This document shows, piece by piece, positions 34,335 to 50,313 of a DNA stretch of 64,000 nucleotides. The DNA lies in NCBI GenBank assembly GCA_020852595.1, contig JADZAK010000103.1, forward strand, positions 5,320-69,319, written 5' to 3'. Within the stretch, counting starts at the first letter, position 1. The number at the start of each line of letters is the position of its first letter. Position numbers and translations under genes: made by a program. Origin of the DNA: Rhodospirillaceae bacterium (GTDB taxonomy: Bacteria > Pseudomonadota > Alphaproteobacteria > Rhodospirillales > Rhodospirillaceae). The notes beneath the pieces were generated by a model. It saw only the letters and a program-made list of their open reading frames with translations, was not told the DNA's origin and ran no database searches.

Positions 34335-34361
34335 AAGGCTCCGCCCAACCGCGCCGCGGTC

Positions 34362-36299: not shown

Positions 36300-36403
36300 G
36301 GTCGAGCATGTGAAAAAGAACCCCTGACAGGCGCGGTTTTGACGGCTAAATACGGCGGATTAAGGGCTATCATATCACAAAACCCCCGTCCGAGGTGCTC
36401 CCC

Positions 36404-36760
36404 ATGGCGACGGCCAAAAAGAAAGCTGCGCAGAAACCCGCCGGCAAAGCCGCCAAGAAGAAGACAAGCCCAAAGCGAGCGCCCGCCACGAAGAAAAGCG
36501 CCGCGAAGAAGCGCGTTTCCAAAAAACGCGCCGTTAAGAAATCGGCCGCCGGCGGTGTGCGTCTTGGTGTGCCCCTCGACCTCGACGCCCGCTTGCGCAA
36601 TCTCGCCGTTCAGATGGACCTCAGCCTCGAGGAGGTCTTGATCCAGGCGATGAGCGAGTTCGCCGACAATTGGGAAGATCATTTGCTTACGGTCCGCAAT
36701 CTGAACGCGGGCGACGACCGCATGCAGTTGTCCGTTCCGGACGACGACAACACGCCCTAA
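36404..36760 (+). CDS. Hypothetical protein: Lys/Ala-rich histone-H1-like tail fused to a putative ribbon-helix-helix domain
   Basis: MATAKKKAAQKPAGKAAKKKTSPKRAPATKKSAAKKRVSKKRAVKK, then VRLGVPLDLDARLRNLAVQMDLSLEEVLIQAMSEF (strand-helix-helix pattern). Confidence 0.6.
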   Translation: MATAKKKAAQKPAGKAAKKKTSPKRAPATKKSAAKKRVSKKRAVKKSAAGGVRLGVPLDLDARLRNLAVQMDLSLEEVLIQAMSEFADNWEDHLLTVRNLNAGDDRMQLSVPDDDNTP

Positions 36761-36781
36761 AGCTCCCGAGGCGGGGAAAGC

Positions 36782-37936: not shown

Positions 37937-37948
37937 AGTCGTATCCTT

Positions 37949-37979
37949 GAAAGAAAAAGGGAGGAGCAAGGCTCCTCCC
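37949..37979 (-). terminator. Intrinsic terminator downstream of the NHL-repeat gene
   Basis: gggaggagc (37959-37967) / gctcctccc (37971-37979), a 9-bp stem. On the minus strand it is followed by tttttctttc. Confidence 0.75.
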
Positions 37980-38005
37980 TTCTCATTCTATCTAGGTTCG
38001 GCGGC

Positions 38006-39151
38006 TTATTTAATCGGCGTGTTGGGCGCGAACTTCTGGACGCGGTGTCCGCCCGCTTCGCCCGTGAACACATTGCCCTTCGAGTCCGTGGTGATCACAT
38101 GCAGGCGCGAGAACTCGCCGGCATAGGCGCCCTGGCGGCCGAAGGTCCGTACTTCCTGACCGTTCTCGCGGCTTACCATGCGCACCGTTTCAAAGTTGCC
38201 GTCCGCGATGACGAGATAGCTCTGCGCCTTGTCCTGCCAGATCGCCATATCGGCGACGCGGCCCGGAATGCGCTGGTCGAGATTCGGCATGTTGTAGAGG
38301 AACTCCTTCACGAACTTGCCGCTGCTTTCGAACACCTGGATGCGCTGGTTCTGGCGGTCACAGGCGTAGACCAGCCCGTCGTTGGCGCGCACCACGCAGT
38401 GCACGGTTTCCATCTGATCGGGAAGATTTGTCTTCGGATTGACGCCCGGCTTATCCTTATCCGTCGGCGCGTTGCCGTAAGCGCCCCACATGCGTTTGAA
38501 GGCGCCGGTCTTGGCGTCATAAACGATGACGCGGTGATTCACATAACCGTCCGCGATATAGGCTTCCTCGCCCTTCGCGTCGAACACGATCTTGGGCGCC
38601 TTGGAGAGCTGGTTCTTATCAAGGCTGCCCTTGGTGGCGCCGGGCTTGCCGAGTTGGAACAGGAACTTGCCGTCGCGCGTGAACTTGATCGCATGGCCGT
38701 CCGCCTTCGAACGGTCCGGCTTGCCGTCGGCCGCGATCGGACCATCGCCGTTGCCGAGGATCCAGACATTGCCTTGCGGATCGACCGTCACGCCGTGTTC
38801 GCTCGACGGCCAGTCGTAACCTTGTCCCGGACCGCCCCAGGCCGCGACCACTTTGCCTTCCGGGCTGAACGCGATCACCGGCGGCGCGGCGATGCAGCAG
38901 GGCGCGGCCGGCGGGGTGCGCGAGGCTTTGGTCTCGCGCGCGGTCAGGGTGCGCGGGCGATGGATCACCCACACATTGTCCTCAGCATCCACGGCAAGGC
39001 CGGAGATCTCGCCCAGCACCCAGGTGTTCGGCAGCGTCTGCGGCCAGAACGGATCGACTTTGAATTCAGGCGCCGCGGCGGCGGCGAATACGGGCGCCGC
39101 GGCGCCGAGTGTCAGAGCAAGCGCGACGAACGATGAGCGAAGAATACGCAT
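38006..39151 (-). CDS. Exported NHL-repeat beta-propeller protein (peptidyl-alpha-hydroxyglycine lyase-like family)
   Basis: Signal MRILRSSFVALALTLGAAAPVFA. Repeated G.AVD..GNVWV / DG.L.V.D..N.RI.VF type blades. Confidence 0.75.
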   Translation of the reverse strand: MRILRSSFVALALTLGAAAPVFAAAAAPEFKVDPFWPQTLPNTWVLGEISGLAVDAEDNVWVIHRPRTLTARETKASRTPPAAPCCIAAPPVIAFSPEGKVVAAWGGPGQGYDWPSSEHGVTVDPQGNVWILGNGDGPIAADGKPDRSKADGHAIKFTRDGKFLFQLGKPGATKGSLDKNQLSKAPKIVFDAKGEEAYIADGYVNHRVIVYDAKTGAFKRMWGAYGNAPTDKDKPGVNPKTNLPDQMETVHCVVRANDGLVYACDRQNQRIQVFESSGKFVKEFLYNMPNLDQRIPGRVADMAIWQDKAQSYLVIADGNFETVRMVSRENGQEVRTFGRQGAYAGEFSRLHVITTDSKGNVFTGEAGGHRVQKFAPNTPIK

Positions 39152-39284
39152 GGCCGGTGTCCCTCCCAGGAGTCTTATCGGCAGAACTGAAGCAACTGCG
39201 TGCTTGGATTTTTTTATCTTGGGCATGTTCTCATCGGAAACCCGCACACACTTTTCCGGAACATGCCCCGATCTCAAACAGTAT

Positions 39285-39318
39285 AGAAAAAAAAGGAGGG
39301 GCTTTTGGCCCCTCCTTT
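39285..39318 (-). terminator. Strong intrinsic terminator downstream of the TonB-dependent receptor
   Basis: aggaggggc (39294-39302) / gcccctcct (39308-39316). On the minus strand it is followed by a T8 run (39287-39294). Confidence 0.85.
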
Positions 39319-39336
39319 TGTGAGTTCTCGAAATTT

Positions 39337-42204
39337 TTACATCCGGAAGCGGATGCCCGCGCGGAACACGCGACCGAGAGCGTCGTAGACGCCTTGGTTG
39401 GTGGAAATGGTGCCGTAAGCGCTGCCCGCCGGGCCGCCCGGAACGATCACGGGGTCCTTATTCGTCAAATTCTTGACGTTAAGGAACGTTTCGACATCCA
39501 GACCGTCATCGGCGTAACTGCTGAGTTTGTAGGCGATATTGGTGTCCCAATAGAACGCCCCCGCCAGATGATTGTTGTTGATGGTGCGATTGCTGGCCGT
39601 AGAGGTGGGGCAGCCGGTGGTGCACTCGATATTGGAGTTCAAGATGGTGCCGCTGCTGACACCGCGGCCCGTCAAAGTGAACGTGAACGGATCGTTCGAG
39701 TAGGACGCTGAGATTCGATAAGTCCAGCTCGGCGTTTCATCGCCATCGTTTTGGCCGGCGGTATCCGTCGGCGCGACGATGCCGTCGTTCTCATAGTTCT
39801 TGATGTAATGAGACGCGAGCAGGCGGAGCGAGAGGTTGCCGTTCATGCTGTCGCTAAGATCCGACAGGGCCATGCGATAGCTGACGTCGAAGTCGAGGCC
39901 GCGCGCTTCCTTGACCGCCAGATTGAACGGCGAGATCGAGATGCGCGAGATGATCGGCGCGCCGCCGGGGCTGGTGCCGCGCGTGATCGCCGCGCAGTAC
40001 TGCTGGATGCCTTCGAAGCAGAAGTCGACGATCTGCTGCGCGCCCACGGTTCCGATGGCGCCCTTGATCTTGATATTGAAGTAGTCGACCGACGCCTGGA
40101 AGCCCGGAATGAAAGTCGGCTGCAACACCACGCCGAGACCGAGGGTTTTGGCCTTTTCCGGATCCAGAGCCAGGTTGCCGGTATTGAAGCCGGTGTACTG
40201 GATCGACTGGCGCCCGTTGAACGGATCGATGACGGTGTTGGTGTTGGAGGTGCCGGCGGCAAACAGTTCCTGCAGGTTCGGCGCGCGGATGTCGCGCGAA
40301 TAGGTGCCGCGGAAACGAATGTCCGGCAGCGGCGACCAGGTCGAGCCGACCTTGTAGGTCGTCACGAAACCCGACGTCGAATAGTCGGTGAAACGCACGG
40401 CGGCGTTCAGGTCGAGCTGCTGCTCGATCAGCGGCACCACCGTTTCGACGAAGCCTTCGGTCACGTTGTACTTGCCGAAGCTGGGCAGGAAGTTGCCCAC
40501 GAACCAGCCGGAGCGGTAGGCCGGGTCCACGTCGCCGGAGACTTTCTCGATGCGGTGTTCGGCGCCGAACGCCAGCGACACGGGGCCGGCCCACAGGTCG
40601 AAGGGCTCGCCGGAGACGGAGAAGGCGCCCACATCCTGCGCGAAGCGCTGGTTGCGGTACGGATCGTCGATCAGATAGTTGAGCGCCGCCTCGCTGTTGA
40701 CGCCGGTGCCCATGCGGTTGAAGGGCACGCAGGCCGGGTCGTCGTTGGTCGTGCTGGCGTCCGCGTTGATGCGGCAGACGATGACGCCCGCGGCGTTGCG
40801 GATCGCGTCGGTGGCGTTCGCAAGACGGGTGTTGTTGGTGATGTCGACCACGGATTCATGCGTGCGCGTGATGCCCTTCTGATAGTAGGCGTCCCACGTC
40901 CAGGTGGTATCCATCGCTTCCGTATCGCCGTTGATGCCCACGACATAGCGGGTCGTGTAGCGGCGGTTGTCGGTGCGGCGCAGCGGCAGATCGCCGTTCA
41001 TGCTGCCCATGCTGAACTGCGACAGGCCCAGCGCATCCACACGCGACTTGACGGCGGCCGGGATGAAGGCGTTGTCCGCACGGATGATGATGTTGGCCTG
41101 GTTGAACTGATAACCGGTGACACCATCGGAATCGGTGTAGTTCCACGACGCCTGGCCGAACACTTCGATGTTGTCGGCGATGTCGTAACTGACGCGCGTG
41201 AACAGGCCTTCACGGTGTTCGGCGGGGTCGAGCGCCTGCACGTTGTTGAACTGGTTCGACTTCCAATCGCCGCCGACCATCCACGGATCGAGGCGGGTCG
41301 AGCCGTAGTTGAACTGATAGGGCGTGCCGCCCGGACCGAAGGCGGTGCCGGCCAGCGCGGTGTTGGTGATGATGCCGCCCAGCGTGGCCTGGCTGAGGGC
41401 GGCACCGCACACATTGAGACGCTCGGGCGCGCCGTTCGTGGCGGTATAGGCCGGGTTGTTGATCTGGTAGCAGCCCTGATTGTTCCAATCGCGGTTGGAC
41501 GGCACATTGTTGATGCCGTGACGGTCGGCGATTTCACCGCTGAAGATGATGTGGCCGCGATCGTTGGCGAAGGGCGTGCCGCCGGCGAGCGAGACTTTCC
41601 AGTTCGCGCCGTCGCCATACGTCGTAAGGCCGCCTTCAACGGCGCCTTTGAAGCCCGTGAAGTCCTTGTCGAGGATGAAGTTGACGACGCCGGACACGGC
41701 GTCGGAACCATAGGCCGCCGAAGCGCCGCCGGTCACGACGTCGACGCGTTCCACCAGCATCTGCGGGAAGTTGTTCACGTCGACGATGCTGTTGAGGGTC
41801 GAGGGCACCGAACGCTGGCCATCCATGAGGACCAGCGTGCGGTTCGCACCCAGCGCGCGCAGGTTGATCGAGTTCACGCCGGCGGTGCCCGACGAGGCCG
41901 AAGTGCTGGAACCCTGCGGGGTCGTCGAGTTGGCGACCGACGGCAGATCGTTGACGAAGTCGGCGAGGTTTTCGGCCGGCGACTGCAGGAGTTCTTCGAT
42001 CCCCACGACCGTCAGCGGCGTCGGCGCCTGGTACCCGTCGCGCACGACGCGGGTCCCGGTGACGACGATTTCATCGACCGGGCCGGCTTGAGCCTGTTGC
42101 GCCTGCGCGAAGGCCGGCGTGGCTACGGACATGACCAGCGCGGTCGCGCTCACCGTCGATACGAGCGCGCGGCGGCGGTGAGTCGTCTTGAAGACTGTAA
42201 GCAT
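39337..42204 (-). CDS. TonB-dependent outer-membrane receptor
   Basis: Signal peptide, TonB-box-like DEIVVTGTRV, plug motif NRTLVLMDGQR. A 955-aa beta-barrel-type sequence ending GIRFRM. Confidence 0.9.
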   Translation of the reverse strand: MLTVFKTTHRRRALVSTVSATALVMSVATPAFAQAQQAQAGPVDEIVVTGTRVVRDGYQAPTPLTVVGIEELLQSPAENLADFVNDLPSVANSTTPQGSSTSASSGTAGVNSINLRALGANRTLVLMDGQRSVPSTLNSIVDVNNFPQMLVERVDVVTGGASAAYGSDAVSGVVNFILDKDFTGFKGAVEGGLTTYGDGANWKVSLAGGTPFANDRGHIIFSGEIADRHGINNVPSNRDWNNQGCYQINNPAYTATNGAPERLNVCGAALSQATLGGIITNTALAGTAFGPGGTPYQFNYGSTRLDPWMVGGDWKSNQFNNVQALDPAEHREGLFTRVSYDIADNIEVFGQASWNYTDSDGVTGYQFNQANIIIRADNAFIPAAVKSRVDALGLSQFSMGSMNGDLPLRRTDNRRYTTRYVVGINGDTEAMDTTWTWDAYYQKGITRTHESVVDITNNTRLANATDAIRNAAGVIVCRINADASTTNDDPACVPFNRMGTGVNSEAALNYLIDDPYRNQRFAQDVGAFSVSGEPFDLWAGPVSLAFGAEHRIEKVSGDVDPAYRSGWFVGNFLPSFGKYNVTEGFVETVVPLIEQQLDLNAAVRFTDYSTSGFVTTYKVGSTWSPLPDIRFRGTYSRDIRAPNLQELFAAGTSNTNTVIDPFNGRQSIQYTGFNTGNLALDPEKAKTLGLGVVLQPTFIPGFQASVDYFNIKIKGAIGTVGAQQIVDFCFEGIQQYCAAITRGTSPGGAPIISRISISPFNLAVKEARGLDFDVSYRMALSDLSDSMNGNLSLRLLASHYIKNYENDGIVAPTDTAGQNDGDETPSWTYRISASYSNDPFTFTLTGRGVSSGTILNSNIECTTGCPTSTASNRTINNNHLAGAFYWDTNIAYKLSSYADDGLDVETFLNVKNLTNKDPVIVPGGPAGSAYGTISTNQGVYDALGRVFRAGIRFRM

Positions 42205-42224
42205 TTTCCCCCCAAAGGTGACGA

Positions 42225-42256
42225 TGAAACGAACTTGAACCGGGTGAGAACCCGGT
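42225..42256 (-). terminator. Possible terminator or attenuator between the COG4315 gene and the TonB receptor gene
   Basis: accgggt (42239-42245) / acccggt (42250-42256). On the minus strand it is followed by tcaagttcgtttc, a weak U-tract. Confidence 0.35.
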
Positions 42257-42328
42257 CCCTTCCCTCACCGGCCGCAGACATCCCGCACCCCTAATACGCG
42301 GGATCGCTCCGGCCGGTTCCTAGAACTC

Positions 42329-43708
42329 TTACGGATACGCGATCGCCCACACCAGCGTGGCGACGCCGTCCATCGGTGTGCCCACGTCGACGATCTTCTT
42401 GGCGTCGAACGAAAGCTCCATGTTGTAGGTGTCGTGGCCGAGCATATCGCCGGGCTTCTTGTCGCCGGCGAAGGTGTAGAGCGCGTAGCCCATGTAGGCC
42501 CACTGCTTCTGCCCGTCGTCGCGCGTGTAGACCGTCCAATAGCCTTGCGGCTGTGCGTTGGCCGGCGCGAGGAACGGCTTCCACTGATCGCAGGCATCGC
42601 CGCAGCGCGACTTGGTGCCGATATCGCGGCCGACGGCCGGGCGATGCGGCTGGCCGCGGTGCAGGCTGTGACCGCCGCCGGACTGATAGATATGACCGTC
42701 GCGCTTATAAAGCGTCATGCCCGCTTCCGTGGCCCAGGTATAGCCCTGGTTCAAGGTCGGCTGCAGCTTCACGCCGTCCGGCAGGAAGTGCTTTTGCACG
42801 GCCGCGACTTTCCAGCGTGTGTCGGCGCCGACGCCGTAAGAGTCGCCGAACTTCTGGTCTTCGTCGTAGCTGTAAAGACCCTGGCCTTTGTAGGCCCATT
42901 GCGAGGTGCCGTCATCGCGCGCGATGATGGTGAAGTCGCCGATGGGGAACCCGATCGCCGGCGCGGCGAGCGGCGTCCAGCCGGCGCTGGTCAGCTTCTT
43001 CTCGTCCTTCGCGGCGCCGTCGAACACATAGAGCGTGTGACGGCGGTGATCGACGAGGCCGAGCGCGGACGATTCAAGGATCTCTTCGATCTGCACGCCG
43101 TTCGGCACCGCGCCGAATTTCTCGCCGGCGGGATACATCAGAGCCGGCTGCCAATTCTCCGGCATCGGCTTGTCCTTGCCGCCGGCGCGGCCGCCCGAAC
43201 CGCGGATGCCGCCGCCGACCATCTTGCCCGAACCGTCCATGCGTTTCGCGCCGAAGCGCGCGGCGCTGTTGCCCGCCAGCGAACCCGGATCGACGTCTTC
43301 GGTGTAGGTGTAGAGCGGACGGCCCTGAACCGCCCACTGCTTCGCGCCGTCGGCGCGCGTGATGATCGACCAATCCCCAAACGCCACCGATCCTGCGATG
43401 GGCGCCACCGGCTTGAACTTCTCGGTGCAGTCCGCCGTGCAGTTGGACTTGCCGGGCGCATCGAGCTTGTAGGTGTACATCGTCATGCCGCGCGCGTCGG
43501 TGTAGGCGACTTCATCGCGGAAAACGACAGAGGCCGTTTCCTTGCCGAGGTCCCAGCCCTGACCGCGCCCCAGCGCCTGCAGGGTGATGCCCGGCGGCGT
43601 GGTGTAGACCGGACGCTTCGCGCCTTTGTCGGCGGCCTGGGTGCCGGCGGCGAAGACAATCGCCGCGGCCGCCACGCCGACCTTCAACATGATCTTCAAC
43701 TGACTCAT
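42329..43708 (-). CDS. Exported protein with six COG4315-type repeats ('lipoprotein with Yx(FWY)xxD motif' / secreted repeat of unknown function)
   Basis: Sec signal. Six units: MYTYKLD, LYTYTED, LYVFDGA, LYSYDED, LYKRDGH, LYTFAGD. Two C-x3-C-x3-(F/W)KP motifs (CTADCTEKFKP, CGDACDQWKP). Confidence 0.8.
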   Translation of the reverse strand: MSQLKIMLKVGVAAAAIVFAAGTQAADKGAKRPVYTTPPGITLQALGRGQGWDLGKETASVVFRDEVAYTDARGMTMYTYKLDAPGKSNCTADCTEKFKPVAPIAGSVAFGDWSIITRADGAKQWAVQGRPLYTYTEDVDPGSLAGNSAARFGAKRMDGSGKMVGGGIRGSGGRAGGKDKPMPENWQPALMYPAGEKFGAVPNGVQIEEILESSALGLVDHRRHTLYVFDGAAKDEKKLTSAGWTPLAAPAIGFPIGDFTIIARDDGTSQWAYKGQGLYSYDEDQKFGDSYGVGADTRWKVAAVQKHFLPDGVKLQPTLNQGYTWATEAGMTLYKRDGHIYQSGGGHSLHRGQPHRPAVGRDIGTKSRCGDACDQWKPFLAPANAQPQGYWTVYTRDDGQKQWAYMGYALYTFAGDKKPGDMLGHDTYNMELSFDAKKIVDVGTPMDGVATLVWAIAYP

Positions 43709-43732
43709 AACCGCTCTCCCTCGCTTAACCGG

Positions 43733-45058
43733 TCAGGCCAAAATTTCAGTCACGGGCTTCTGCGTCTGGTTCGAGAGCGATCCCCATGCGCTCATCGAGA
43801 CGCCGAAGCCCTGCATCACCGTCAGACCCATGCGCGTGGCCGGGTCGCCCGCAAAGGGGATATGCATGCCCGTCTTGAAGCGGCCGCCCGCGTTGCCGAT
43901 CGTCATGACGGGAAGATTGTCCATGGTGTGCGTGCGCGCGTAGCCATGGTCGGTCTGCCACAGGATCAGCGTACGGTCGAGAACGCTGCCCGCGCCCTCC
44001 TTCTGAGTCTGAAGCGTGGTCAGGAAGTCCGCGCACACCTGATTGGCCCACAGGATGAACCAGGTCACTTCCTTCTGGTAGCCGAGCTTCTCGTCGATCG
44101 GCTCTTCATGCGTATAGCCGTGCCAGCCGTTGGTCGAACCGGGCTTGCGGGCGCCTTGCGCATCCATGAACACGTTGAACACGCGCGTTTGGCCGCAAGC
44201 GACCGCGTTGGCCAGAAGGTCGGCGAACAGCTTGGTATTGGTGGAGACCTGCGCGACCTCCTCGCCGGGCTGAACTTCCTGCTTGGCGCCCGGCACATGG
44301 CAGGCCGGCAGCGGCGCGGGCTTTTCCAGCTTCATCGCCAGCTGGTTCTCGATCTGGCGCACGGAGGAGAAATATTCATCGAGGCGCGCGCGGTCGGAGG
44401 CGCCGAGCTGAGCCATGATCGCGTGGCGCTGGTCGGAGACCGCCGACAACACGCTTCGCTTCGCGACGACTTTCGCATCCGGAGTGAACTCACCGGCGTT
44501 CGGATCCTGGAACTCGGGTCCGAAGATGCGCTTGTACAAGGCGTCGGGTGACGGCTCCGACGGATTGACGGCGGCGCCCGCGCGCTTGCTGTAGCTGCGG
44601 CGATCGCCCATCAACGAAACTTCAAGAGAGCGGAAGCGCGTCCGCGTGCCGATGGAATCGGCGATGATGCTGTCGACGGACGGGCCGCTATCGCGTCCCG
44701 TCGGAATGCCGCCAAGGCTGGCGATCTGCGCGCCGGTGCGGTGCGTTTCCACCGGACGCCCGTCGAGGAAGTAATTCGCGCCGCTGACGACGTTCATCCG
44801 TTCCTTGAACGGGTCGAACACCTTCAATTCGATATTGTGGTTGTAGCCCTTGCCGACACGGTCCGGAATCCAGCGGCCGGGGTTGAATCCGAGATACTGA
44901 AGCCAGGTTCCGAAAACGGTGGGCAGCGCCGCGCCGCTTTGCGCAAGCGCGGTGCCGTTCGTATTCAGGAAGGCGTCGAGAAACGGCAGGCCGACCGTGA
45001 CGGCGGTGCCGCCCATGATGCCTTTCAGGACGTTTCTGCGATTCTGCAATTTGCTCAT
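43733..45058 (-). CDS. DUF1552 family protein with a Tat signal
   Basis: MSKLQNRRNVLKGIMGGTAVTVGLPFLDAF, LDEYFSSVRQIENQL and a C-terminal LPVMTIGNAGGRFKTG. The family's HxxSHH position reads HGYTHE. Start trimmed to ATG 45058. Confidence 0.8.
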   Translation of the reverse strand: MSKLQNRRNVLKGIMGGTAVTVGLPFLDAFLNTNGTALAQSGAALPTVFGTWLQYLGFNPGRWIPDRVGKGYNHNIELKVFDPFKERMNVVSGANYFLDGRPVETHRTGAQIASLGGIPTGRDSGPSVDSIIADSIGTRTRFRSLEVSLMGDRRSYSKRAGAAVNPSEPSPDALYKRIFGPEFQDPNAGEFTPDAKVVAKRSVLSAVSDQRHAIMAQLGASDRARLDEYFSSVRQIENQLAMKLEKPAPLPACHVPGAKQEVQPGEEVAQVSTNTKLFADLLANAVACGQTRVFNVFMDAQGARKPGSTNGWHGYTHEEPIDEKLGYQKEVTWFILWANQVCADFLTTLQTQKEGAGSVLDRTLILWQTDHGYARTHTMDNLPVMTIGNAGGRFKTGMHIPFAGDPATRMGLTVMQGFGVSMSAWGSLSNQTQKPVTEILA

Positions 45059-45087
45059 TCTCGTCTCTCCTCGCCTTATTCGGCGCC

Positions 45088-46794
45088 CTACTCGGCGGAT
45101 GCGGTCTGCGTCGCCGCCGGCGGCACGGTGCGATAGAATTCGGGGCTGGTGGCGATACGCTTCATCAGGTCCGGCACCACGTATCCTCCAGCGGTGAAAT
45201 CGTCTTTCAGCTTCGCGACCCAGGGCGTCTCGCCTTTCGCCGGCTTGCGGCCGAGCGCATAGGAACTGAGACGATCCACCAGACACGCGGCGGCGGCGGC
45301 GTTGTCGTGCAGCGCGAGGCCGAGTTCGTAGGAGTTGTTGAACTTCTTGCCGTCGAGCGTGCCGCTGGTGTCGATGGGCTCGCCGTTCTCCGTGGTGCGA
45401 TAAGCGCCCGAGCCGTCGAAGCTCTCGAGCGCGAGGCCCATCGGATCGGTGATCTTATGACAGCCGGCGCACATCGGTTCCTTCGAGTGAGCCGTCAAAC
45501 GCTCGCGGGCGGTCTTGTAGGAGGTCGTATCGTTGACCAGCGTGAAGTCCACATTGCCCGGCGGCGCGGGAACCTTCTGGCACAAAAGGATTTCGCGGAT
45601 CGCCTTGCCGCGAACGGTGGCGGAGCTGCGGTTGGCGGGCGAGTGCAGCGCGCTGAAGCTCGCGTGGCTCAAGATCCCGCCGCGCGGATCGTCGGCGGAG
45701 AATTCAAAGGCCTGCCACGGATCGACCGCACCGTTCGGGCGGTCGTTGACCACCGGCACGCGGTAGATGGCCCCGAGCGAGGAGGTGAGGAACGTTTTTT
45801 TAGTCGTGAAGACATCGCGGTAGTCGGCGCGGTTGGCGATGAGCAGATCCACCAGCGTCCGCAATGTCTGTTCCTGTGCGTCCATCGCCTCGCGGCGGCT
45901 GAACATCGGATAGATCAGATTGTCTTTGCGTAAGGATTCGAAGTCCTCGAAATGGAACATATCGGCGAAGAAGGCGCGCACGCCGGCTTCGACACGGTGA
46001 GACGCCATCATGCGCTCGACCTGACGCTCCAAACCTTTTGACGTATCGAGTTCGCCCTTTTGCGCGGCGTTCAGGAGCTGCGCATCCGGCGCGGCGTTCC
46101 ACAGGAAGAAACTCAGTTGACTGGCCTTGGAGTAGCCGTCGAGCACGCTCTGGCCGCCGGCGGCTTTCGTGACTTGCGGCGCGCGGAACAGGAACTGCGG
46201 CGAAGACAGCATCGCCGAAAGGCTCATGGCGAGGCCGTCATGGAAGCTGTTCAGCTTCGTGCCGGCGGTATTCGCGGCGGCGACATAGGCGGTGACTTCG
46301 GGCGCCGTCATCGGGCGGCGGAAAAGCAGGCGTCCGACGTTGGACAGGAAAGCCTTCGCGCATGCGTCGTCCGGCGCCTTGTCGCTGGCCGGCTTGCAGG
46401 GGATCAGCATCGCGCGGTTCTTCTTGTCGAGCACGACCTGCGCGGCGATCGCATCGGCCATGGCGTCATACTGCTCCATGCCGGCGCTGGTCACACCGAC
46501 GCCCGAAGACCCAATCGCAAGCAAGCCGTCGATGCGCAAATCCGGTTCGAAGCGTCCGCCGAGATCGATGGTCGGGCCGAAGATATCGGCGACGGTGGCG
46601 CGGTATTGCGCGGGCGTCAGGCGCGGCACCGCGGCGGGCGCGGGTTCGAAACCGGCGGCGGCCTGGGCGGCCGGCTTCGCGGCGGGCGGCGCGTCCGCCG
46701 CCGGCGCGCAGGCCGCGAGGACAGCGGCGATACAGCCCGCCGAGGCGGCTTTCAGGAAGGCGGAACGCTTCGCGTGCATTGAAAACTTTTCCAT
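45088..46794 (-). CDS. DUF1587/1595/1592/1588/1585 ('PSD') family lipoprotein with a CxxCH motif
   Basis: Lipobox VLAAC. LTPAQYRATVADIFG (DUF1587-like), GILSHASFSALHS...RGKAIREILLCQKVPAPP (DUF1588-like), CAGCHKITDPMGLALESFDGSG (DUF1585-like). Confidence 0.8.
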   Translation of the reverse strand: MEKFSMHAKRSAFLKAASAGCIAAVLAACAPAADAPPAAKPAAQAAAGFEPAPAAVPRLTPAQYRATVADIFGPTIDLGGRFEPDLRIDGLLAIGSSGVGVTSAGMEQYDAMADAIAAQVVLDKKNRAMLIPCKPASDKAPDDACAKAFLSNVGRLLFRRPMTAPEVTAYVAAANTAGTKLNSFHDGLAMSLSAMLSSPQFLFRAPQVTKAAGGQSVLDGYSKASQLSFFLWNAAPDAQLLNAAQKGELDTSKGLERQVERMMASHRVEAGVRAFFADMFHFEDFESLRKDNLIYPMFSRREAMDAQEQTLRTLVDLLIANRADYRDVFTTKKTFLTSSLGAIYRVPVVNDRPNGAVDPWQAFEFSADDPRGGILSHASFSALHSPANRSSATVRGKAIREILLCQKVPAPPGNVDFTLVNDTTSYKTARERLTAHSKEPMCAGCHKITDPMGLALESFDGSGAYRTTENGEPIDTSGTLDGKKFNNSYELGLALHDNAAAAACLVDRLSSYALGRKPAKGETPWVAKLKDDFTAGGYVVPDLMKRIATSPEFYRTVPPAATQTASAE

Positions 46795-46805
46795 GGGGCG
46801 CTGGC

Positions 46806-47906
46806 TTATTTCACTTCGGCGCTTTGGTAGCGCAGGTGCGGCGTTTCCTGGACGAAGGCCGGAACCGCGGTGATGCGATAGGCCGTCGAGATCGACATAT
46901 TCATGCCGGTCTTCGGATCCGGGTCGGCGTCCGCGGCCTTTTTCATCGCGTAGTAGAGGCCGGGGCGATCGCCAACGATGCCATTATGCGAGAAGGCAAA
47001 ATAAATCTCGGTCCACGGCTGATACCCGCCGACCAATCCATCGAGCGTATCGCCCTTCAACATCTTGAGACGCAGATGCGTGTTCTTGAGATTGAGCACC
47101 GGCGAGCTCAGCGCGTTCCACAGGAGACTGAGCGGCTTGTGTTCGGTGACTTTGAGTTCGCCGTCCTTGATCTCGGCCTTGAACTCATTGTGCGAGCGCG
47201 GATCCGGATCGACGCGGTAGGTCATGAAGTGGCGCGGCGAGCCGTCGAGATTGGACTTCAGATATTCCAGCGCGCGCGTGAGGCGGACGGTGACGGGACC
47301 GTCCTTGTCGATGTCCTCGCCGGTGATGGTGATCAGCCAGGCCGGCTGCGAATCTTTCAGCTGCACCCAGATCCATTCGCCGTACGCCGACGGCGCGTCC
47401 CAGCTGCCGCGGAAGTTCTGATTACATCCGATGGCGCGCGAGAGCATGTTGTCCACGCCCTTCTCGCCGGTCTGCGGATCGGTGAAGGACACTTCGCCGT
47501 CCTTGCCGTCGAGATTGAAACCGTAACCGACTTTCGAGGTCACGAACTTGAGGCCGGGATCCTTCGTGGCTTCGGGGTGGGTGTAGGCGTTGACGTTCTG
47601 GCCGTTGATGACCGCGCGGGCGTTGACGATGGCGTTGATGCGCTCCTCGCCGTCACCGCCCTTGGCCCATTCGGACATCATCGACTTCACTTCGTCGGGC
47701 TTGTAGCCGAGGCCCTGGAGGATGACCGCGTACTGACCGGCCTGGTCATCGGGATTCACGCCGCCGGGGCAATCCCCGTCCCGCGAATTGAATTGCTGGG
47801 AGAAATAGCTGACGACATAGCTGCGCGATTCCAGCGCATGGGCGGCCGCCGCCTGACCCAGCAGCGACGCACCGGCGACGCCGGCGCCAAGAGCCCAACG
47901 AAACAT
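46806..47906 (-). CDS. Hypothetical exported protein, no family recognised
   Basis: Signal MFRWALGAGVAGASLLGQAAAAHA. Ends 11 nt upstream of the DUF1592-family gene. Start trimmed to ATG 47906. Confidence 0.6.
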   Translation of the reverse strand: MFRWALGAGVAGASLLGQAAAAHALESRSYVVSYFSQQFNSRDGDCPGGVNPDDQAGQYAVILQGLGYKPDEVKSMMSEWAKGGDGEERINAIVNARAVINGQNVNAYTHPEATKDPGLKFVTSKVGYGFNLDGKDGEVSFTDPQTGEKGVDNMLSRAIGCNQNFRGSWDAPSAYGEWIWVQLKDSQPAWLITITGEDIDKDGPVTVRLTRALEYLKSNLDGSPRHFMTYRVDPDPRSHNEFKAEIKDGELKVTEHKPLSLLWNALSSPVLNLKNTHLRLKMLKGDTLDGLVGGYQPWTEIYFAFSHNGIVGDRPGLYYAMKKAADADPDPKTGMNMSISTAYRITAVPAFVQETPHLRYQSAEVK

Positions 47907-48085
47907 TCTGGCCTCCACGACCATATCCTCCACACCACGAGCCACGCCTCCGCCCTCTCAGTCGCGGGGGGCGGGCGCTGCAAAGCCGTACTACATAGAC
48001 GAGTGTAACATTCTAATCCCCCCATCCTAGTTCAGATTTGAAACAGGCTTATCGCGGGAATAAGCGGCTTTCCGCTTGTTGCGCC

Positions 48086-48117
48086 GCAAAAAAGGGAGAA
48101 CCTCGCGGCCCTCCCTT
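48086..48117 (-). terminator. Terminator downstream of the methyltransferase gene
   Basis: aagggag (48092-48098) / ctccctt (48111-48117) with a 12-nt loop. On the minus strand it is followed by ttttgcgg. Confidence 0.5.
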
Positions 48118-48141
48118 CGAGAATTCGGCGGGATCAGGCAG

Positions 48142-48978
48142 TTAAGATGATTTCTTCGCCGTGACTTTGGTGGACTTGCCGGCGACGTCCATCGCGGCGT
48201 CGATGGTATTTCCATTCACCTTCCCGCTGAAGCGCAGCGGCGCGGCGGCGCCCGGAACCGTGGCGGCAAAAGTGATGTTCGGACCGGCGAGAACCGGCGA
48301 TTCAATCGGCACCTGTTTGCCATTGGGCAAAGTCAGGGTCCCGGAGGCCATCTGGTACTGCTGCTTGAGATCGGCCTTGTAGGTTTCGTTGCCCACCTGC
48401 CAGGTCCAGGCGCCCGCGACCTTCGCCGGGTCGATGAAAAGATAGATGTTCCGCGAGTCCACCACCTCGTGTTTGTCCGGCTGCCAGTCGCCCATGGTGA
48501 AGGCGTGGGTGACGATGCGCGAGCCCGGCTTCATTTCGTCGAGGATCTTCGGGCGCAGCTTCAGGTTCACTTCCGGAAGCAGGTACATCGTCATGACCGA
48601 CGCTTCGCTGAAGTTCATCTGGAAGAGATCGGCTTGCTTGAAGGTCACGCGGTCGGTGACGCCGGCCTTTTTCGCGTTTTCATTGGCTTCCGCGATGCGC
48701 ACCGGATCGAGATCGACGCCGACGCCCTTTTTCACTTTCATATCGCGCGCGGCCGTCACGACAATGCGTCCATCGCCCGAGCCCAGGTCGTAGTGGATAT
48801 CGTCGGGGCCGACATTGGCGAGTTTCAGCATGCGGTCGACGAGTTCCTGCGGCGTCGGCACATACGGCACGTCGAGTTCGACGCCGCCTTCGCCGGTGTA
48901 CTTTGTGGCCGCGACCGCGCTGAAGGTCATGAACACCGCGGCAAGGCCGGCGAGGCCGATACTTTTGTGCATCTTCAT
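48142..48978 (-). CDS. Class I SAM-dependent methyltransferase domain protein with an N-terminal signal peptide or anchor
   Basis: MKMHKSIGLAGLAAVFMTFSAVAA, then YDLGSGDGRIVVTAA (motif I), GVDLD and a C-terminal ~100-aa beta-rich domain. AGGA RBS lies in the 15-nt gap after the permease. Confidence 0.8.
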   Translation of the reverse strand: MKMHKSIGLAGLAAVFMTFSAVAATKYTGEGGVELDVPYVPTPQELVDRMLKLANVGPDDIHYDLGSGDGRIVVTAARDMKVKKGVGVDLDPVRIAEANENAKKAGVTDRVTFKQADLFQMNFSEASVMTMYLLPEVNLKLRPKILDEMKPGSRIVTHAFTMGDWQPDKHEVVDSRNIYLFIDPAKVAGAWTWQVGNETYKADLKQQYQMASGTLTLPNGKQVPIESPVLAGPNITFAATVPGAAAPLRFSGKVNGNTIDAAMDVAGKSTKVTAKKSS

Positions 48979-48993
48979 GGAACGATTCCTTTT

Positions 48994-50313
48994 TCAGGCC
49001 GTGCGTGACGAACGGCGGGCAAGCAACAGAACCGGAAGGCCGACGACAAGCACGACGACGCCGGCGAGGGCGCCGCGGCCTGTAAACGCCAGACTATTAT
49101 AGAGCATGTAGGCGCCCGTAAGGCAGAACAACGCCGGCGTGACGGGATAAAGCGGCACGCGGAAAGGCCGCGGGGCGCCGGGATCGCGAAAGCGCAGGAC
49201 GAACAGCGAAACGCCTGTCAGGAAAAAGAAAAGCCAGAAAACCGGCTGCAGGAAATCGACCACGGTTTGCACGCCCGAGCGCGCGAAAGCGCCCGCGGCC
49301 ACGATCACAAGCGCGACCGCGCCCTGGAACATGACCCCGCGCGTCGGCACGCCGCGCACCGTGTCCCACTGGGCCAGGAAGCGGAACATCGCGAAGTCGT
49401 GACCCAGCGCGAAAGCGGTGCGCGCGCCCGTGAACAGCGTGATGTTGGTGTTGTCGATGATGAGAAACAACACGACGAAGGTGATGACGACCGCGCCCGC
49501 GTCACCGAAGGCCGCGCGCATCACATCGGCGGCAATGGTTTTGGACGCGGCCATGCCGGCCGGACCGAGCACCGAGAGATAGGCGAAATTGACCGCCACA
49601 TAGAGCGCGGTGATGACCGCGATTCCGATCAGCAGCGCCCGCACCATGTTGCGATTGGGATCTTTGACTTCCGCCGAAATGTAAGCCGCCTCGTTCCAGC
49701 CGCCGAAGGTCAACAGAACGAGCAGCATCGCGCCGCCGATGCTGGCCATGGTGACGGGCGGCGGCGGTTCGGCGGCCGGCGGCGGCGCGGCGCCGCTGGT
49801 CAGACCGGCGAGAATGAGCACGCCGAGGCCGATGAGCGTGGCCACGAACAAAATATTCTGGAATGTCTTGGTTTGCCGCACACCGGCGAGATTGAGGCCG
49901 GTGAGCACGATGATGATCAGCGCGGCGTACACCGCGGAGCTGAAAGGCCCCAAGGGCAAAAGCTGGGTGGCGTAGTCCCCGAAGATATAGGCGAACAGCG
50001 CGATGGAGCCGCTTTGGATCACCGTCAGGCGCGCCCAGGCGAACATGAAGCTCACATTGGGACCATAGGCGCGGTGCAGGAAGTGATATTCGCCGCCCGC
50101 CGAAGGGTAGGCGGTGGCGAGCTCGGCGTAACAGAGCGCGCCGATGACCGACACCACACCCCCCGCCAGCCAGACCATGAGGATGGCGTTGGCGTCCCCC
50201 AGAGTCCCGGCGACGAAGGCCGGAAAACTGAAGATCCCTGTGCCGATGACAAGGCCGACGATGATCGCGACGCAATCCGTCAGCGAGAGAACTCTATTTG
50301 GTGCGTTGCTCAT
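48994..50313 (-). CDS. APC-family amino acid permease
   Basis: About 12 TM segments. VAIIVGLVIGTGIFSFP and AELATAYPSAGGEYHFL. Start trimmed to ATG 50313; the track ORF has a 167-aa spurious extension. Confidence 0.85.
   Translation of the reverse strand: MSNAPNRVLSLTDCVAIIVGLVIGTGIFSFPAFVAGTLGDANAILMVWLAGGVVSVIGALCYAELATAYPSAGGEYHFLHRAYGPNVSFMFAWARLTVIQSGSIALFAYIFGDYATQLLPLGPFSSAVYAALIIIVLTGLNLAGVRQTKTFQNILFVATLIGLGVLILAGLTSGAAPPPAAEPPPPVTMASIGGAMLLVLLTFGGWNEAAYISAEVKDPNRNMVRALLIGIAVITALYVAVNFAYLSVLGPAGMAASKTIAADVMRAAFGDAGAVVITFVVLFLIIDNTNITLFTGARTAFALGHDFAMFRFLAQWDTVRGVPTRGVMFQGAVALVIVAAGAFARSGVQTVVDFLQPVFWLFFFLTGVSLFVLRFRDPGAPRPFRVPLYPVTPALFCLTGAYMLYNSLAFTGRGALAGVVVLVVGLPVLLLARRSSRTA

What the first reader, a model, noticed from the sequence alone, without database searches (positions are those of the whole stretch)
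42329..47906. Tight four-gene operon of exported proteins of unknown function (orphan / DUF1592-family CxxCH lipoprotein / Tat-DUF1552 / 6x COG4315 repeats) next to a TonB-dependent receptor
Seen in the sequence:
- Four minus-strand genes are separated by only 11, 29 and 24 nt. Terminator-like hairpins bracket them (48086-48117 upstream, 42239-42256 downstream).
- Every product carries an export signal. These are Sec (MFRWALGAG...AAAHA), a lipobox (VLAAC), twin-arginine (NRRNVLKG) and Sec (MSQLKIML...TQA).
- The DUF1592-family protein carries a heme-c type CAGCH motif. In the DUF1552 protein, the family's HxxSHH position reads HGYTHE.
- A TonB-dependent receptor and an NHL propeller follow on the same strand as separate transcription units.

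Established knowledge: DUF1552 proteins and DUF1585/1587/1588/1592/1595 ('PSD' domain) proteins occur as conserved gene pairs. They were first noted in planctomycetes and, to my knowledge, have no experimentally assigned function.

Inference: the pair is here extended by a six-repeat COG4315 protein and an orphan 366-aa protein. It could be a periplasmic, possibly heme-dependent, processing or uptake module working with the adjacent outer-membrane receptor. This is the best candidate in the window for an undescribed system, but the function is entirely open.
Basis: partly seen in the sequence, partly recalled or inferred. Interest (0 to 1): 0.7.

Follow-up and report, generated by a model that had tools for sequence, protein, structure and literature searches.

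The report
Conserved four-gene exported module beside TonB receptor
Four tightly packed genes for exported proteins (a new-fold protein, a haem-motif protein, a phosphatase/sulfatase-like enzyme and a six-repeat protein) form a cassette that recurs, often several times per genome and usually beside an outer-membrane TonB-dependent importer, in uncultured alpha- and gammaproteobacteria; its function is unknown.

Summary
There are four minus-strand genes with gaps of 11, 29 and 24 nt, and all four products carry export signals. Pfam finds PSD3-PSD5-PSD4-PSCyt3-PSD2 with one CAGCH motif, DUF1552 with HGYTHE, and Lipoprotein_15 with six repeats.

One correction: the "orphan" (here X) is not an orphan. 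It has at least 550 close homologues and 927 clusters in a 1.84-billion-protein library. None has a Pfam or NCBIfam model, and a confident model (pLDDT 88) has no PDB neighbour.

The set is strongly conserved:
- 59 of 65 X genes with enough flank are followed by PSD-DUF1552-Lipoprotein_15 in the same order.
- A diverged subfamily keeps all four families in a different order.
- X occurs fused to PSD and to Lipoprotein_15.
- Single genomes carry several cassettes.
- An outer-membrane receptor lies within 10 kb in 49 of 65 cases.

The DUF1552 model has an alkaline-phosphatase-superfamily fold (sulfatase, LtaS, EptC), with an invariant His/Asp/Glu cluster and a Thr/Cys position that resembles a nucleophile.

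Best reading: a receptor-coupled periplasmic processing complex with an ester-cleaving metalloenzyme core and a haem partner. The substrate is unknown. I found no description of this cassette in the searchable literature.

The parts
46806..47918 (-). Gene X: exported protein (Sec signal ...AAAHA|LE) of an unnamed family; probable start GTG 47918 (ATG 47906 as read by the first stage).
   Evidence: ORF. No Pfam or NCBIfam hit. At least 550 homologues and 927 representative clusters. AF2 model pLDDT 88 / pTM 0.85, with no PDB or BFVD neighbour at E<0.1. Invariant C46 and C161; motifs GFNLDG, YRxDPDPRSHNEF and ADADPDPxTGxN. Start-codon argument.
45088..46794 (-). PSD3-PSD5-PSD4-PSCyt3-PSD2 protein (DUF1587/1595/1592/1588/1585), 568 aa, with lipobox-like VLAAC and a single haem-c motif CAGCH (residues 442-446, nt 45457-45471).
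   Evidence: Pfam hits. CxxCH is at least 95% conserved in 73 homologues. The lipobox is present in only 29 of 74.
43733..45058 (-). DUF1552 (HXXSHH family) protein, 441 aa, with a twin-arginine signal (RR at nt 45035-45040) and a predicted alkaline-phosphatase-superfamily fold. Candidate active-site residues: T105-H106 (nt 44741-44746), H313..H317-E318-E319 (nt 44102-44122), D370-H371 (nt 43946-43951), H377 and H399.
   Evidence: Pfam E 2.5e-42. RR present in 76 of 76. AF2 pLDDT 80. Foldseek against PDB matches S1 sulfatases, LtaS, EptC and YejM at E down to 3e-6, probability 1.0.
42329..43708 (-). Lipoprotein_15 (COG4315) protein, 459 aa, with a Sec signal and no lipobox. It has six repeats arranged as three pairs and two CxxxC motifs (residues 90 and 369).
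   Evidence: Pfam E 4e-37. Repeat positions. It follows DUF1552 in 59 of 65 loci.
39337..42204 (-). TonB-dependent receptor, 955 aa (Plug + barrel, no STN signalling extension). It lies 124 nt downstream of the cassette.
   Evidence: Pfam. Only the plug resembles BtuB, CirA or FepA. This receptor type is adjacent to the cassette in 38 of 65 loci; counting either receptor type gives 49 of 65. It co-diverges with the cassette.
38006..39154 (-). Exported NHL beta-propeller. It resembles the lyase (PAL) domain of peptidylglycine alpha-amidating monooxygenase and retains His, DGY and DR motifs.
   Evidence: Pfam NHL. PDB 3fvz at E 1e-7, with alignment. A homologue at 40% identity or more lies near the cassette in 21 of 65 loci. 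In the loci mapped it is next to the TBDR or next to X.
47995..48046 (-). Conserved non-coding block upstream of X, with the inverted repeat TTTCA-N4-TGAA(A/C). Candidate promoter or operator.
   Evidence: It is nearly invariant in 8 orthologous loci while the flanking intergenic DNA diverges. The motif occurs once in the window. Among the 85 loci then fetched it appears upstream of X only in the close orthologues L006-L010, plus one site inside L065.
48086..48117 (-). Intrinsic terminator of the upstream methyltransferase gene. It marks the 5' boundary of the unit.
   Evidence: Sequence. Stem pairing is kept through compensatory changes in relatives.
42237..42258 (-). Hairpin between Lipoprotein_15 and the TBDR: 9-bp stem with a weak T tail. 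Possible partial terminator.
39291..39319 (-). Strong intrinsic terminator after the TBDR: 12-bp stem followed by a T run.

Best explanation
The four genes encode a periplasmic multi-protein module that works with a TonB-dependent outer-membrane importer.

Proposed roles:
- Catalytic core: the Tat-exported DUF1552 protein. I read it as an alkaline-phosphatase-superfamily metalloenzyme with a His-rich metal site and a Thr (Cys in a sister subfamily) at the nucleophile position. Its most likely action is to cleave an ester-type bond (phosphate, sulfate or similar) on a substrate brought in by the receptor.
- Obligate partner: the PSD/PSCyt3 protein. It contributes one c-type haem, for electron transfer or for keeping the metal site in the right redox state. 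In this organism it probably also provides membrane anchoring.
- Accessory subunits: X (new fold) and the six-repeat Lipoprotein_15 protein. They bind or hand over the substrate.

The cassette has been duplicated many times, generally together with a receptor. The copies therefore probably serve different substrates, much as polysaccharide-utilisation loci do.

Shown: gene order, conservation, co-divergence, fusions, export signals, conserved motifs and predicted folds.

Inferred: that a complex forms, the hydrolytic chemistry, haem binding and the redox role, and coupling to import.
For: Conservation of the set:
- X-PSD-DUF1552-Lipoprotein_15 occurs in the same order in 59 of 65 loci from Rhodospirillaceae-like MAGs, Hyphococcus, Steroidobacteraceae, Woeseiaceae and Lysobacterales.
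- A diverged subfamily (26-43% identity) keeps all four families in the order PSD-DUF1552-Lipo15-X (L028, L036).
- Pairwise identities of the four proteins co-vary across non-orthologous pairs (r 0.69-0.85).

Fusions and coupling:
- An X::Lipo15 fusion is found with identical sequence on 4 independent contigs.
- An X::PSD fusion lies on an 80-kb contig with intact downstream genes.
- X and Lipo15 overlap by 4 nt in the two-gene variant in L026 and L032.

Export: the Tat RR is present in 76 of 76 DUF1552 proteins, and all products carry signal peptides.

DUF1552 as an enzyme:
- The fold matches sulfatases, LtaS, EptC and YejM.
- H106, H313, H317, E318, E319, D322, D370, H371, H377 and H399 are invariant even in the diverged subfamily, while residue 105 switches between T and C.

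Haem: CxxCH is at least 95% conserved.

Link to import:
- An outer-membrane receptor lies within 10 kb in 49 of 65 loci.
- The TBDR-NHL pair is found on either side of the cassette.
- The TBDR co-diverges with the cassette (r 0.66-0.84).
- ECF sigma/FecR is present in 10 loci.
- Tri-haem cytochrome c or HiPIP is adjacent in a few loci.

Copy number: single MAGs contribute several loci each, for example 6 from SZ_szas3bin.26, and L036 holds three complete and one partial cassette in tandem.
Against: - There is no experimental datum for any of the four families.
- The alkaline-phosphatase link is structural only. TM is about 0.4 and identity 9-12%, on a predicted model. No sequence-level link exists to Pfam AP-clan families or to PDB.
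- The position that carries a metal-binding Asp/Glu at the end of strand 1 in AP enzymes is Gln54 here and Trp in the sister subfamily. The site is therefore not canonical.
- My mapping of residues onto AP/NPP motifs comes from secondary-structure order, not from a superposition.
- No known alkaline-phosphatase-fold enzyme needs a cytochrome partner.
- The recurrent neighbours I annotated with Pfam give no consistent substrate theme. They include an MBL-fold protein, a class A beta-lactamase-like protein, a nitroreductase, a cyclophilin, DctA, MFS and a TPR-sulfotransferase. None of them is a glycoside hydrolase.
- About a quarter of cassettes have no receptor within 10 kb.
- Co-divergence partly reflects shared species history.
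Confidence: 0.4

Rival explanations
1. Metal or iron-chelate acquisition. The receptor imports a metal complex such as a xenosiderophore, haem-like compound or Ni/Co chelate. DUF1552 then cleaves the carrier, the haem protein reduces the metal, and X and Lipoprotein_15 act as periplasmic metal or ligand binders.
For: - TBDR linkage is present in 49 of 65 loci and ECF sigma/FecR in 10.
- The CxxCH haem motif is conserved.
- DUF1552 has a His-rich conserved cluster.
- X has conserved acidic DPDP motifs and a Cys pair.
- Lipo15 carries CxxxC motifs.
- A genuine X::Lipo15 fusion sits beside a HupE/UreJ_2 (Ni/Co-transporter-like) membrane protein and an NHL protein.
- Several copies per genome could match several chelators.
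Against: - No Fur, Irr, Zur or PhoB-type boxes were found upstream of 146 X or receptor genes, or anywhere relevant in the loci. The window has none at all.
- The window TBDR has no STN signalling domain. It resembles siderophore and B12 receptors only in the plug.
- I noticed no ABC importer or siderophore-biosynthesis genes among the recurrent neighbours.
Confidence: 0.2
2. Periplasmic oxidoreductase module. The substrate is oxidised or reduced at the DUF1552 metal centre, or by the NHL partner. Electrons pass through the PSD haem to soluble cytochromes or HiPIP and on to the respiratory chain. The chemistry is redox rather than hydrolytic.
For: - CxxCH is conserved.
- Tri-haem cytochrome c lies near the cassette in 5 loci, and HiPIP plus a cytochrome lie next to it in L004.
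- Tat export is typical of redox enzymes.
- One PSD domain (DUF1587) is annotated in Cbp2D, a Cellvibrio protein that also contains a c-type cytochrome domain and was studied as a possible LPMO electron donor (PMC8981238).
Against: - The DUF1552 fold matches hydrolases and transferases only.
- No flavin, molybdopterin, Fe-S or copper-oxidase signature was found.
- Extra cytochromes are present in under 10% of loci.
Confidence: 0.15
3. Envelope remodelling. DUF1552 acts like LtaS, EptA or YejM on a lipid or LPS head group, and the cassette modifies the cell's own outer membrane rather than processing an imported substrate.
For: LtaS, LtaP, EptC and YejM/PbgA are among the top structural matches. 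The window's PSD partner has a lipobox.
Against: - DUF1552 has no transmembrane domain.
- The lipobox is absent from most family members.
- Several diverged copies per genome, paired with receptors and sometimes with ECF/FecR, are not expected of a housekeeping envelope enzyme.
Confidence: 0.07
4. No joint function. The genes are merely syntenic neighbours inherited together in one lineage.
For: Many of the fetched loci come from related uncultured Rhodospirillaceae MAGs, so counts of loci overstate the number of independent events.
Against: - The same order is found in alpha- and gammaproteobacteria with different flanks.
- All four families persist after rearrangement in a subfamily at 26-43% identity.
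- Two kinds of fusion exist.
- The start and stop codons overlap by 4 nt in L026 and L032.
Confidence: 0.03

Closest known systems
PSCyt3/PSD (DUF1585/1587/1588/1592/1595) + DUF1552 gene pairs of Planctomycetes and Verrucomicrobia (noted in Rhodopirellula baltica; PSCyt3 genes next to a family of unknown genes in PMC5615132)
   Same: The two Pfam architectures are the same. The genes are adjacent in the same order, the PSCyt3 domain has one CxxCH, and DUF1552 has a Tat signal. Function is unknown in both cases.
   Different: - Here the pair is embedded in a fixed four-gene cassette with family X and Lipoprotein_15.
- It is in Proteobacteria and is usually next to a TonB-dependent receptor.
- The family motif reads HxxTHE instead of HxxSHH.
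- In the literature I could search, I found no description of the extended cassette.
Alkaline-phosphatase superfamily enzymes (S1 sulfatases, NPP/AP, LtaS, EptA/EptC, YejM)
   Same: The predicted core fold matches. A D-H dipeptide follows a core strand, an HxxxH sits where AP/NPP have DxxxH, and a Thr/Cys sits at the N-terminus of a helix, like the Ser/Thr/Cys(FGly) nucleophile (the mapping is inferred).
   Different: - No sequence similarity is detectable.
- A long helical insertion spans about residues 170-290.
- Gln or Trp replaces the strand-1 Asp/Glu metal ligand.
- No CxPxR sulfatase signature is present.
- The enzyme has an obligate haem-motif partner.
TonB-dependent-receptor-centred utilisation loci (Bacteroidota PULs; CUT loci of Xanthomonas and Caulobacter)
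   Same: An outer-membrane TonB-dependent importer is paired with exported processing and binding proteins. There are several paralogous loci per genome, and some have ECF sigma/anti-sigma regulation.
   Different: There is no SusD-like protein. The neighbours I annotated include no glycoside hydrolase, lyase or CBM. The constant part is four proteins of unknown function.
DUF1501 (Tat, sulfatase-like) paired with PSCyt1/PSCyt2/PSD1 or DUF1800 proteins
   Same: From my own knowledge, not tested here: these pairs have an analogous logic. A Tat-exported alkaline-phosphatase-like protein is encoded next to a large helical, often CxxCH-bearing partner, and the pairs are massively paralogous in Planctomycetes.
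   Different: The Pfam families are different. I know of no X or Lipoprotein_15 companions for these pairs. They are likewise uncharacterised.

Membership tests
DUF1552 / HXXSHH (PF07586) | Match to the Pfam model above the gathering score | tested here: met
   146 bits against a cut-off of 30, E 2.5e-42. All 42 aligned homologues match.
DUF1552 / HXXSHH (PF07586) | HxxSHH motif | tested here: not met
   The motif reads H313-G-Y-T-H-E. T316, H317 and E318 are invariant in this subfamily and its diverged sister. This is a variant of the motif: Ser becomes Thr and the last His becomes Glu.
PSCyt3/PSD multidomain proteins | PSD3-PSD5-PSD4-PSCyt3-PSD2 architecture with CxxCH in or after PSCyt3 | tested here: met
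   All five domains score above their cut-offs. CAGCH lies at residues 442-446 and is at least 95% conserved. Covalent haem attachment cannot be tested with these tools.
Lipoprotein_15 / COG4315 (PF03640) | Tandem Yx(FWY)xxD repeats; lipoprotein signal | tested here: inconclusive
   The repeats are present (125.9 bits; six copies). The protein has a Sec signal without a lipobox, and only 5 of 76 family members have a lipobox-like match. It scores far below the SCO0930 equivalog cut-off, 97 against 275 bits.
Alkaline-phosphatase superfamily | Core alpha/beta fold | tested here: met
   Foldseek of the AF2 model (pLDDT 80) gives 56 PDB hits at E<=1e-3. The 50 best listed are alkaline-phosphatase-superfamily members (sulfatases, LtaS, EptC, YejM, alkaline phosphatase), most at probability 1.0 and TMq 0.29-0.41.
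Alkaline-phosphatase superfamily | Metal-ligand set plus Ser/Thr/Cys nucleophile in the canonical positions | tested here: inconclusive
   Invariant H106, H313, H317, D370-H371, H377 and H399, with T/C at 105, fit the pattern. Gln54 or Trp sits at the strand-1 ligand position. No 3-D superposition was available and no sequence-level match exists.
Type I sulfatases (S1) | C/S-x-P-x-R formylglycine signature | tested here: not met
   No such motif is present. The candidate nucleophile context is E-T-H-R-T, or x-C-H-x-T in the sister subfamily.
TonB-dependent receptor | Plug + 22-strand barrel domains | tested here: met
   PF07715 at 61 bits and PF00593 at 114 bits. No match reaches any NCBIfam substrate-specific cut-off.
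Polysaccharide/carbohydrate utilisation locus (PUL/CUT) | Receptor plus carbohydrate-active enzymes (GH/PL/CE) or a SusD-like protein | tested here: not met
   The window genes I scanned on either side of the six (33041-37969, and 48142-50310 on the other side), and the recurrent neighbours across 80 loci that I annotated, include no GH, PL, CBM or SusD.
Fur/Irr-regulated iron-uptake locus | Iron-regulator operator upstream of the receptor or operon | tested here: not met
   No Fur, Irr or Mur box within tolerance was found in 146 upstream regions. The window has none with 6 or fewer mismatches. The consensus motifs were taken from other taxa, so this is a weak negative.
Anti-phage defence systems (PADLOC) | Match to any defence-protein model | tested here: not met
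   No hits for the four proteins. All four are exported.
PAL-like NHL propeller (neighbour gene) | Similarity to the PAL catalytic core, with Zn-ligand His, the DGY tyrosine and the DR arginine | tested here: inconclusive
   3fvz matches at E 1e-7 over 243 residues. The alignment keeps H in the xHG motif, and keeps DGY and DR. The identities of the PAL catalytic residues are recalled from memory. The third His could not be aligned with confidence.

The most novel reading that the evidence does not exclude
X, PSD/PSCyt3, DUF1552 and Lipoprotein_15 assemble into a previously unrecognised type of periplasmic haem-metalloenzyme complex. This complex would be the constant 'engine' of a family of TonB-receptor-coupled acquisition loci in Proteobacteria, a non-carbohydrate counterpart of PULs. 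Its chemistry would also explain the very large PSCyt/PSD-DUF1552 (and perhaps DUF1501) expansions in Planctomycetes and Verrucomicrobia.
Probability: 0.25. Interest if true: 0.8.

Novelty: new variant of a known kind. Interest (0 to 1): 0.62.

Why it matters
The PSCyt/PSD-DUF1552 pairs have been an unexplained feature of planctomycete and verrucomicrobial genomes. [quoted passage not shown]

This finding adds four things:
1. A fixed four-protein context, with fusion evidence for physical association.
2. A structural placement of DUF1552 in the alkaline-phosphatase superfamily, with a concrete list of candidate catalytic residues.
3. A recurrent link to TonB-dependent import.
4. An unnamed protein family (X) whose confident model has no neighbour among solved structures.

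The cassette is also present in a sequenced strain, Peristeroidobacter soli JW-3 (L058). That makes genetics and biochemistry feasible. If a substrate is found, it would annotate the 927 representative clusters of X. It would probably annotate many more DUF1552 and PSD genes in environmental genomes.

Tried and rejected
- Sequence searches of all four proteins against PDB, including profiles of X and DUF1552, found nothing significant.
- Weak-hit Pfam scans of all members of the X and DUF1552 alignments showed no consistent remote family.
- Foldseek of X against PDB and BFVD gave nothing at E<0.1. The best hits were weak and resembled lipocalin, avidin or TbpB barrels at TM<0.2, which I do not regard as meaningful.
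- Rfam on 37000-49500 found no riboswitch or sRNA, so a cobalamin-type control of the TBDR is not supported.
- The sigma-70 promoter scan found no sites.
- Known operator consensus sequences (Fur, Irr, Mur, Zur, PhoB, FNR, RirA) were not enriched over shuffles.
- PADLOC gave no hits.
- No paralogue of the cassette lies elsewhere in the window.
- The upstream methyltransferase is not part of the system. It is syntenic only in the closest relatives, L006-L012.
- One apparent X::PSD fusion (P0242, L086) was discounted, because DUF1552 is split into two ORFs on the same contig. This suggests indel errors or a pseudogene.
- I considered a carbohydrate PUL reading and rejected it for lack of any CAZyme neighbour.
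- Literature searches for every DUF/Pfam/COG name involved returned no functional study.
I had no model coordinates to superpose active sites.

Full report
**1. Observation**

ORF listing confirms four consecutive minus-strand genes:
- X, at 46806-47906 as read by the first stage.
- A 568-aa protein at 45088-46794.
- A 441-aa protein at 43733-45058.
- A 459-aa protein at 42329-43708.

The gaps are 11, 29 and 24 nt.

Pfam assigns:
- PSD3, PSD5, PSD4, PSCyt3 and PSD2 to the second protein.
- DUF1552/HXXSHH to the third (E 2.5e-42).
- Lipoprotein_15 to the fourth (E 4e-37).
- Plug + TonB barrel to 39337-42204.
- NHL to 38006-39154.

X has no Pfam or NCBIfam hit.

CAGCH lies at PSD residues 442-446 and HGYTHE at DUF1552 residues 313-318. 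Lipoprotein_15 has six Yx(Y/F)xxD-type repeats arranged as three pairs. The four N-termini read as Sec, lipobox-like VLAAC, twin-arginine and Sec.

The hairpin at 48086-48117 ends the upstream methyltransferase gene. It keeps its pairing through compensatory substitutions in relatives. A weaker hairpin separates Lipoprotein_15 from the TBDR, and a strong terminator follows the TBDR.

Small corrections:
- The ATG at 47906 is ACG, ACA or ACT in relatives.
- A GTG at 47918, preceded by GGAGGA, is conserved. X probably starts 12 nt further upstream.

**2. The "orphan" is a family**

- A word-indexed search found at least 550 homologues of X, all unnamed and without Pfam domains.
- A profile search of 1.84 billion representatives found 927 clusters at E<=1e-3 and 222 at E<=1e-30.
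- Named members are only 'hypothetical protein', for example in Pseudohongiellaceae/OM182, Rhodospirillaceae, Steroidobacteraceae and Hyphococcus.
- The family has two invariant cysteines and acidic motifs: GFNLDG, YRxDPDPRSHNEF and ADADPDPxTGxN.
- An AlphaFold2 model is confident (pLDDT 88, pTM 0.85). It has no neighbour in PDB or BFVD at E<0.1.
- Sequence profiles find nothing either.

**3. Conservation of the set**

Neighbourhoods of three distant homologues show the same four genes in the same order. These are Hyphococcus, a Steroidobacteraceae MAG and a JGI MAG. In them a TBDR-NHL pair lies either upstream or downstream.

A scan of one genome per species returned 79 loci. I mapped them with tblastn. 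Of 65 X genes with at least 5.6 kb of downstream sequence:
- 59 are followed by PSD-DUF1552-Lipo15.
- 3 are followed directly by Lipo15 (X-Lipo15 only). In L026 and L032 the two genes overlap by 4 nt.
- 3 are rearranged.

A diverged subfamily (26-43% identity to the window proteins) keeps all four families in the order PSD-DUF1552-Lipo15-X (L028, L036).

Identities of the four proteins co-vary across non-orthologous pairs (r 0.69-0.85).

X occurs fused to Lipoprotein_15. The same 797-aa protein is found on four independent contigs. X also occurs fused to PSD, on an 80-kb contig with intact DUF1552 and Lipo15 genes downstream. A second X::PSD case is doubtful, because DUF1552 is split on that contig.

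It is not met.

**4. Copy number and organism**

The closest locus (98% identity for X) is from the uncultured Rhodospirillaceae MAG NJ_NJASGE1bin.36. The window presumably comes from this lineage.

Several MAGs contribute four to six or more loci each. L036 carries three complete and one partial cassette in tandem. The window itself has one copy. Peristeroidobacter soli JW-3 (L058) is the one locus whose record is not labelled as a MAG or uncultured.

**5. Links to import and other neighbours**

Counts are out of the 65 loci:
- Any outer-membrane receptor within 10 kb: 49 (75%).
- The 955-aa TBDR type: 38. A second predicted outer-membrane barrel of about 650 aa, which has no Pfam hit, supplies the receptor in the other 11.
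- NHL: 21.
- ECF sigma/FecR: 10.
- An exported MBL-fold protein: 13.
- A tri-haem cytochrome c: 5.

TBDR identity co-varies with cassette identity (r 0.66-0.84). Part of this reflects shared descent.

The other recurrent neighbours I annotated are heterogeneous. They are a nitroreductase, a cyclophilin-like protein, an MFS transporter, DctA, DUF3095 and a TPR-sulfotransferase. None is a carbohydrate-active enzyme.

The upstream methyltransferase is syntenic only in the closest relatives.

The NHL protein resembles the PAL lyase domain of peptidylglycine alpha-amidating monooxygenase and keeps its H, DGY and DR motifs.

**6. What DUF1552 is**

The AF2 model (pLDDT 80) matches alkaline-phosphatase-superfamily structures. 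These are S1 sulfatases, choline sulfatase, LtaS/LtaP, EptC, YejM/PbgA and intestinal alkaline phosphatase. There are 56 hits at E<=1e-3, most at probability 1.0, with TMq about 0.3-0.4. There is no sequence-level link.

These residues are invariant in both subfamilies: R7-R8 (Tat), H106, D129, H313, T316, H317, E318, E319, D322, D370, H371, H377 and H399. Residue 105 is Thr in the main subfamily and Cys in the diverged one.

Reading the model's secondary structure against what is established for AP and NPP enzymes:
- T/C105 sits at the N-terminus of a helix about 50 residues after strand 1, like the Ser/Thr/Cys nucleophile.
- H313-x3-H317 sits where AP/NPP have DxxxH.
- D370-H371 follows a core strand, like the universal D-H pair.

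This mapping is an inference, not a superposition. The strand-1 ligand position is Gln or Trp, so the site would not be canonical. The 'HXXSHH' motif that names the family would then be part of metal site 1.

**7. The haem partner**

CxxCH is at least 95% conserved among 73 homologues, followed by a conserved DPxGxALExFD stretch. The lipobox is present in only 29 of 74, so membrane anchoring is lineage-specific.

One PSD domain (DUF1587) is annotated in Cellvibrio Cbp2D. That protein also contains a c-type cytochrome domain and was studied as a possible electron donor for LPMOs (PMC8981238). This is only a distant hint of a redox role.

**8. Regulation**

- No Rfam element lies in 37000-49500.
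- No sigma-70 consensus was found.
- Fur, Irr, Mur, Zur, PhoB and FNR consensus sites are not enriched upstream of 146 X or receptor genes, and the window has none.
- A 52-nt block upstream of X (47995-48046), with the inverted repeat TTTCA-N4-TGAA(A/C), is almost invariant among eight orthologous loci while its surroundings diverge. It is a candidate lineage-specific operator or promoter.

**9. Interpretation**

The most economical reading is a periplasmic four-protein module that works with a TonB-dependent importer:
- DUF1552 is the metalloenzyme, probably cleaving esters.
- PSD is its haem partner.
- X and Lipoprotein_15 are binding or hand-over subunits.
- The cassette has been duplicated with receptors for different substrates.

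I give this 0.4.

Rivals:
- Metal or chelate acquisition, 0.2. It is helped by the ECF/FecR neighbours and by the HupE/UreJ_2 gene next to an X::Lipo15 fusion. It is hurt by the absence of metal-regulator boxes.
- A redox module feeding cytochromes, 0.15.
- Envelope remodelling, 0.07.
- Mere synteny, 0.03.

**10. Novelty**

The DUF1552/PSD adjacency is known, and its function was stated to be unknown in 2017 (PMC5615132). I found no description of any of the following:
- the four-gene cassette;
- family X;
- the structural placement of DUF1552;
- the receptor linkage in Proteobacteria.

I class it as a new variant of a known, uncharacterised kind. Interest is moderate to high because it turns an old annotation puzzle into a set of concrete experiments.

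Noticed in passing
window 48142-48978 (-): This class I SAM methyltransferase resembles protein-lysine N-methyltransferases (NCBIfam E 1.7e-44, below the cut-off). It has a signal-peptide-like N-terminus (MKMHKSIGLAGLAAVFMTFSAVAA) and about 100 extra C-terminal residues. An exported or membrane-anchored SAM enzyme would be unusual. It is syntenic with the cassette only in the closest relatives.
   Followed up: partly
window 47995-48046 (-): This 52-nt non-coding block is nearly invariant in eight orthologous loci and contains the inverted repeat TTTCA-N4-TGAA(A/C). It is a candidate operator or promoter of the cassette. I recognised no known regulator consensus in it.
   Followed up: partly
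A conserved GTG 12 nt upstream, with a GGAGGA Shine-Dalgarno sequence, is the probable start of X.
   Followed up: yes
L087 287-5370 (also L088, L089): A genuine X::Lipoprotein_15 fusion protein (797 aa, identical on four contigs) lies directly after an NHL protein and a 457-aa membrane protein. The membrane protein has a HupE/UreJ_2 (Ni/Co-transporter-like) domain. This hints at a metal connection for the X/Lipo15/NHL trio.
   Followed up: partly
L036 900-21002: Three complete cassettes and one partial cassette lie in tandem on 21 kb. Two are of the diverged PSD-DUF1552-Lipo15-X type and two of the X-PSD-DUF1552-Lipo15 type.
   Followed up: partly
L040 7876-9828 (and 16 other loci): A protein of about 650 aa has a plug-like N-terminus and a C-terminal aromatic residue, so it is probably an outer-membrane barrel or receptor. 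It has no Pfam hit and lies directly upstream of X in one paralogous group of cassettes.
   Followed up: partly
L004 8112-9818, L014, L015, L016, L079: A TPR + sulfotransferase (Sulfotransfer_3) protein is encoded close to the cassette in five loci. In L004, L014, L015 and L016 it lies just upstream of X on the opposite strand.
   Followed up: no
L011, L019, L021-L023, L026, L031, L033, L034, L037, L043, L046, L078: These contigs are labelled 'Candidatus Marinimicrobia' but carry cassettes up to 87% identical to the window's Rhodospirillaceae-type genes. The taxonomic label of these MAGs looks wrong, or the bins are mixed.
   Followed up: no
L086 5225-6561: DUF1552 is split into two ORFs (216 + 247 aa) on a contig that also carries an apparent X::PSD fusion. 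This is probably an assembly indel or a pseudogene, so this fusion was not counted as evidence.
   Followed up: yes
window 38006-39154 (-): The exported NHL propeller aligns to the PAL lyase domain of peptidylglycine alpha-amidating monooxygenase (3fvz, E 1e-7). It keeps the xHG, DGY and DR motifs, so it may be an enzyme rather than a scaffold.
   Followed up: partly
L052 6737-7711 and 13 other loci: An exported metallo-beta-lactamase-fold protein (HxHxDH-type motif) recurs next to one paralogous group of cassettes.
   Followed up: partly
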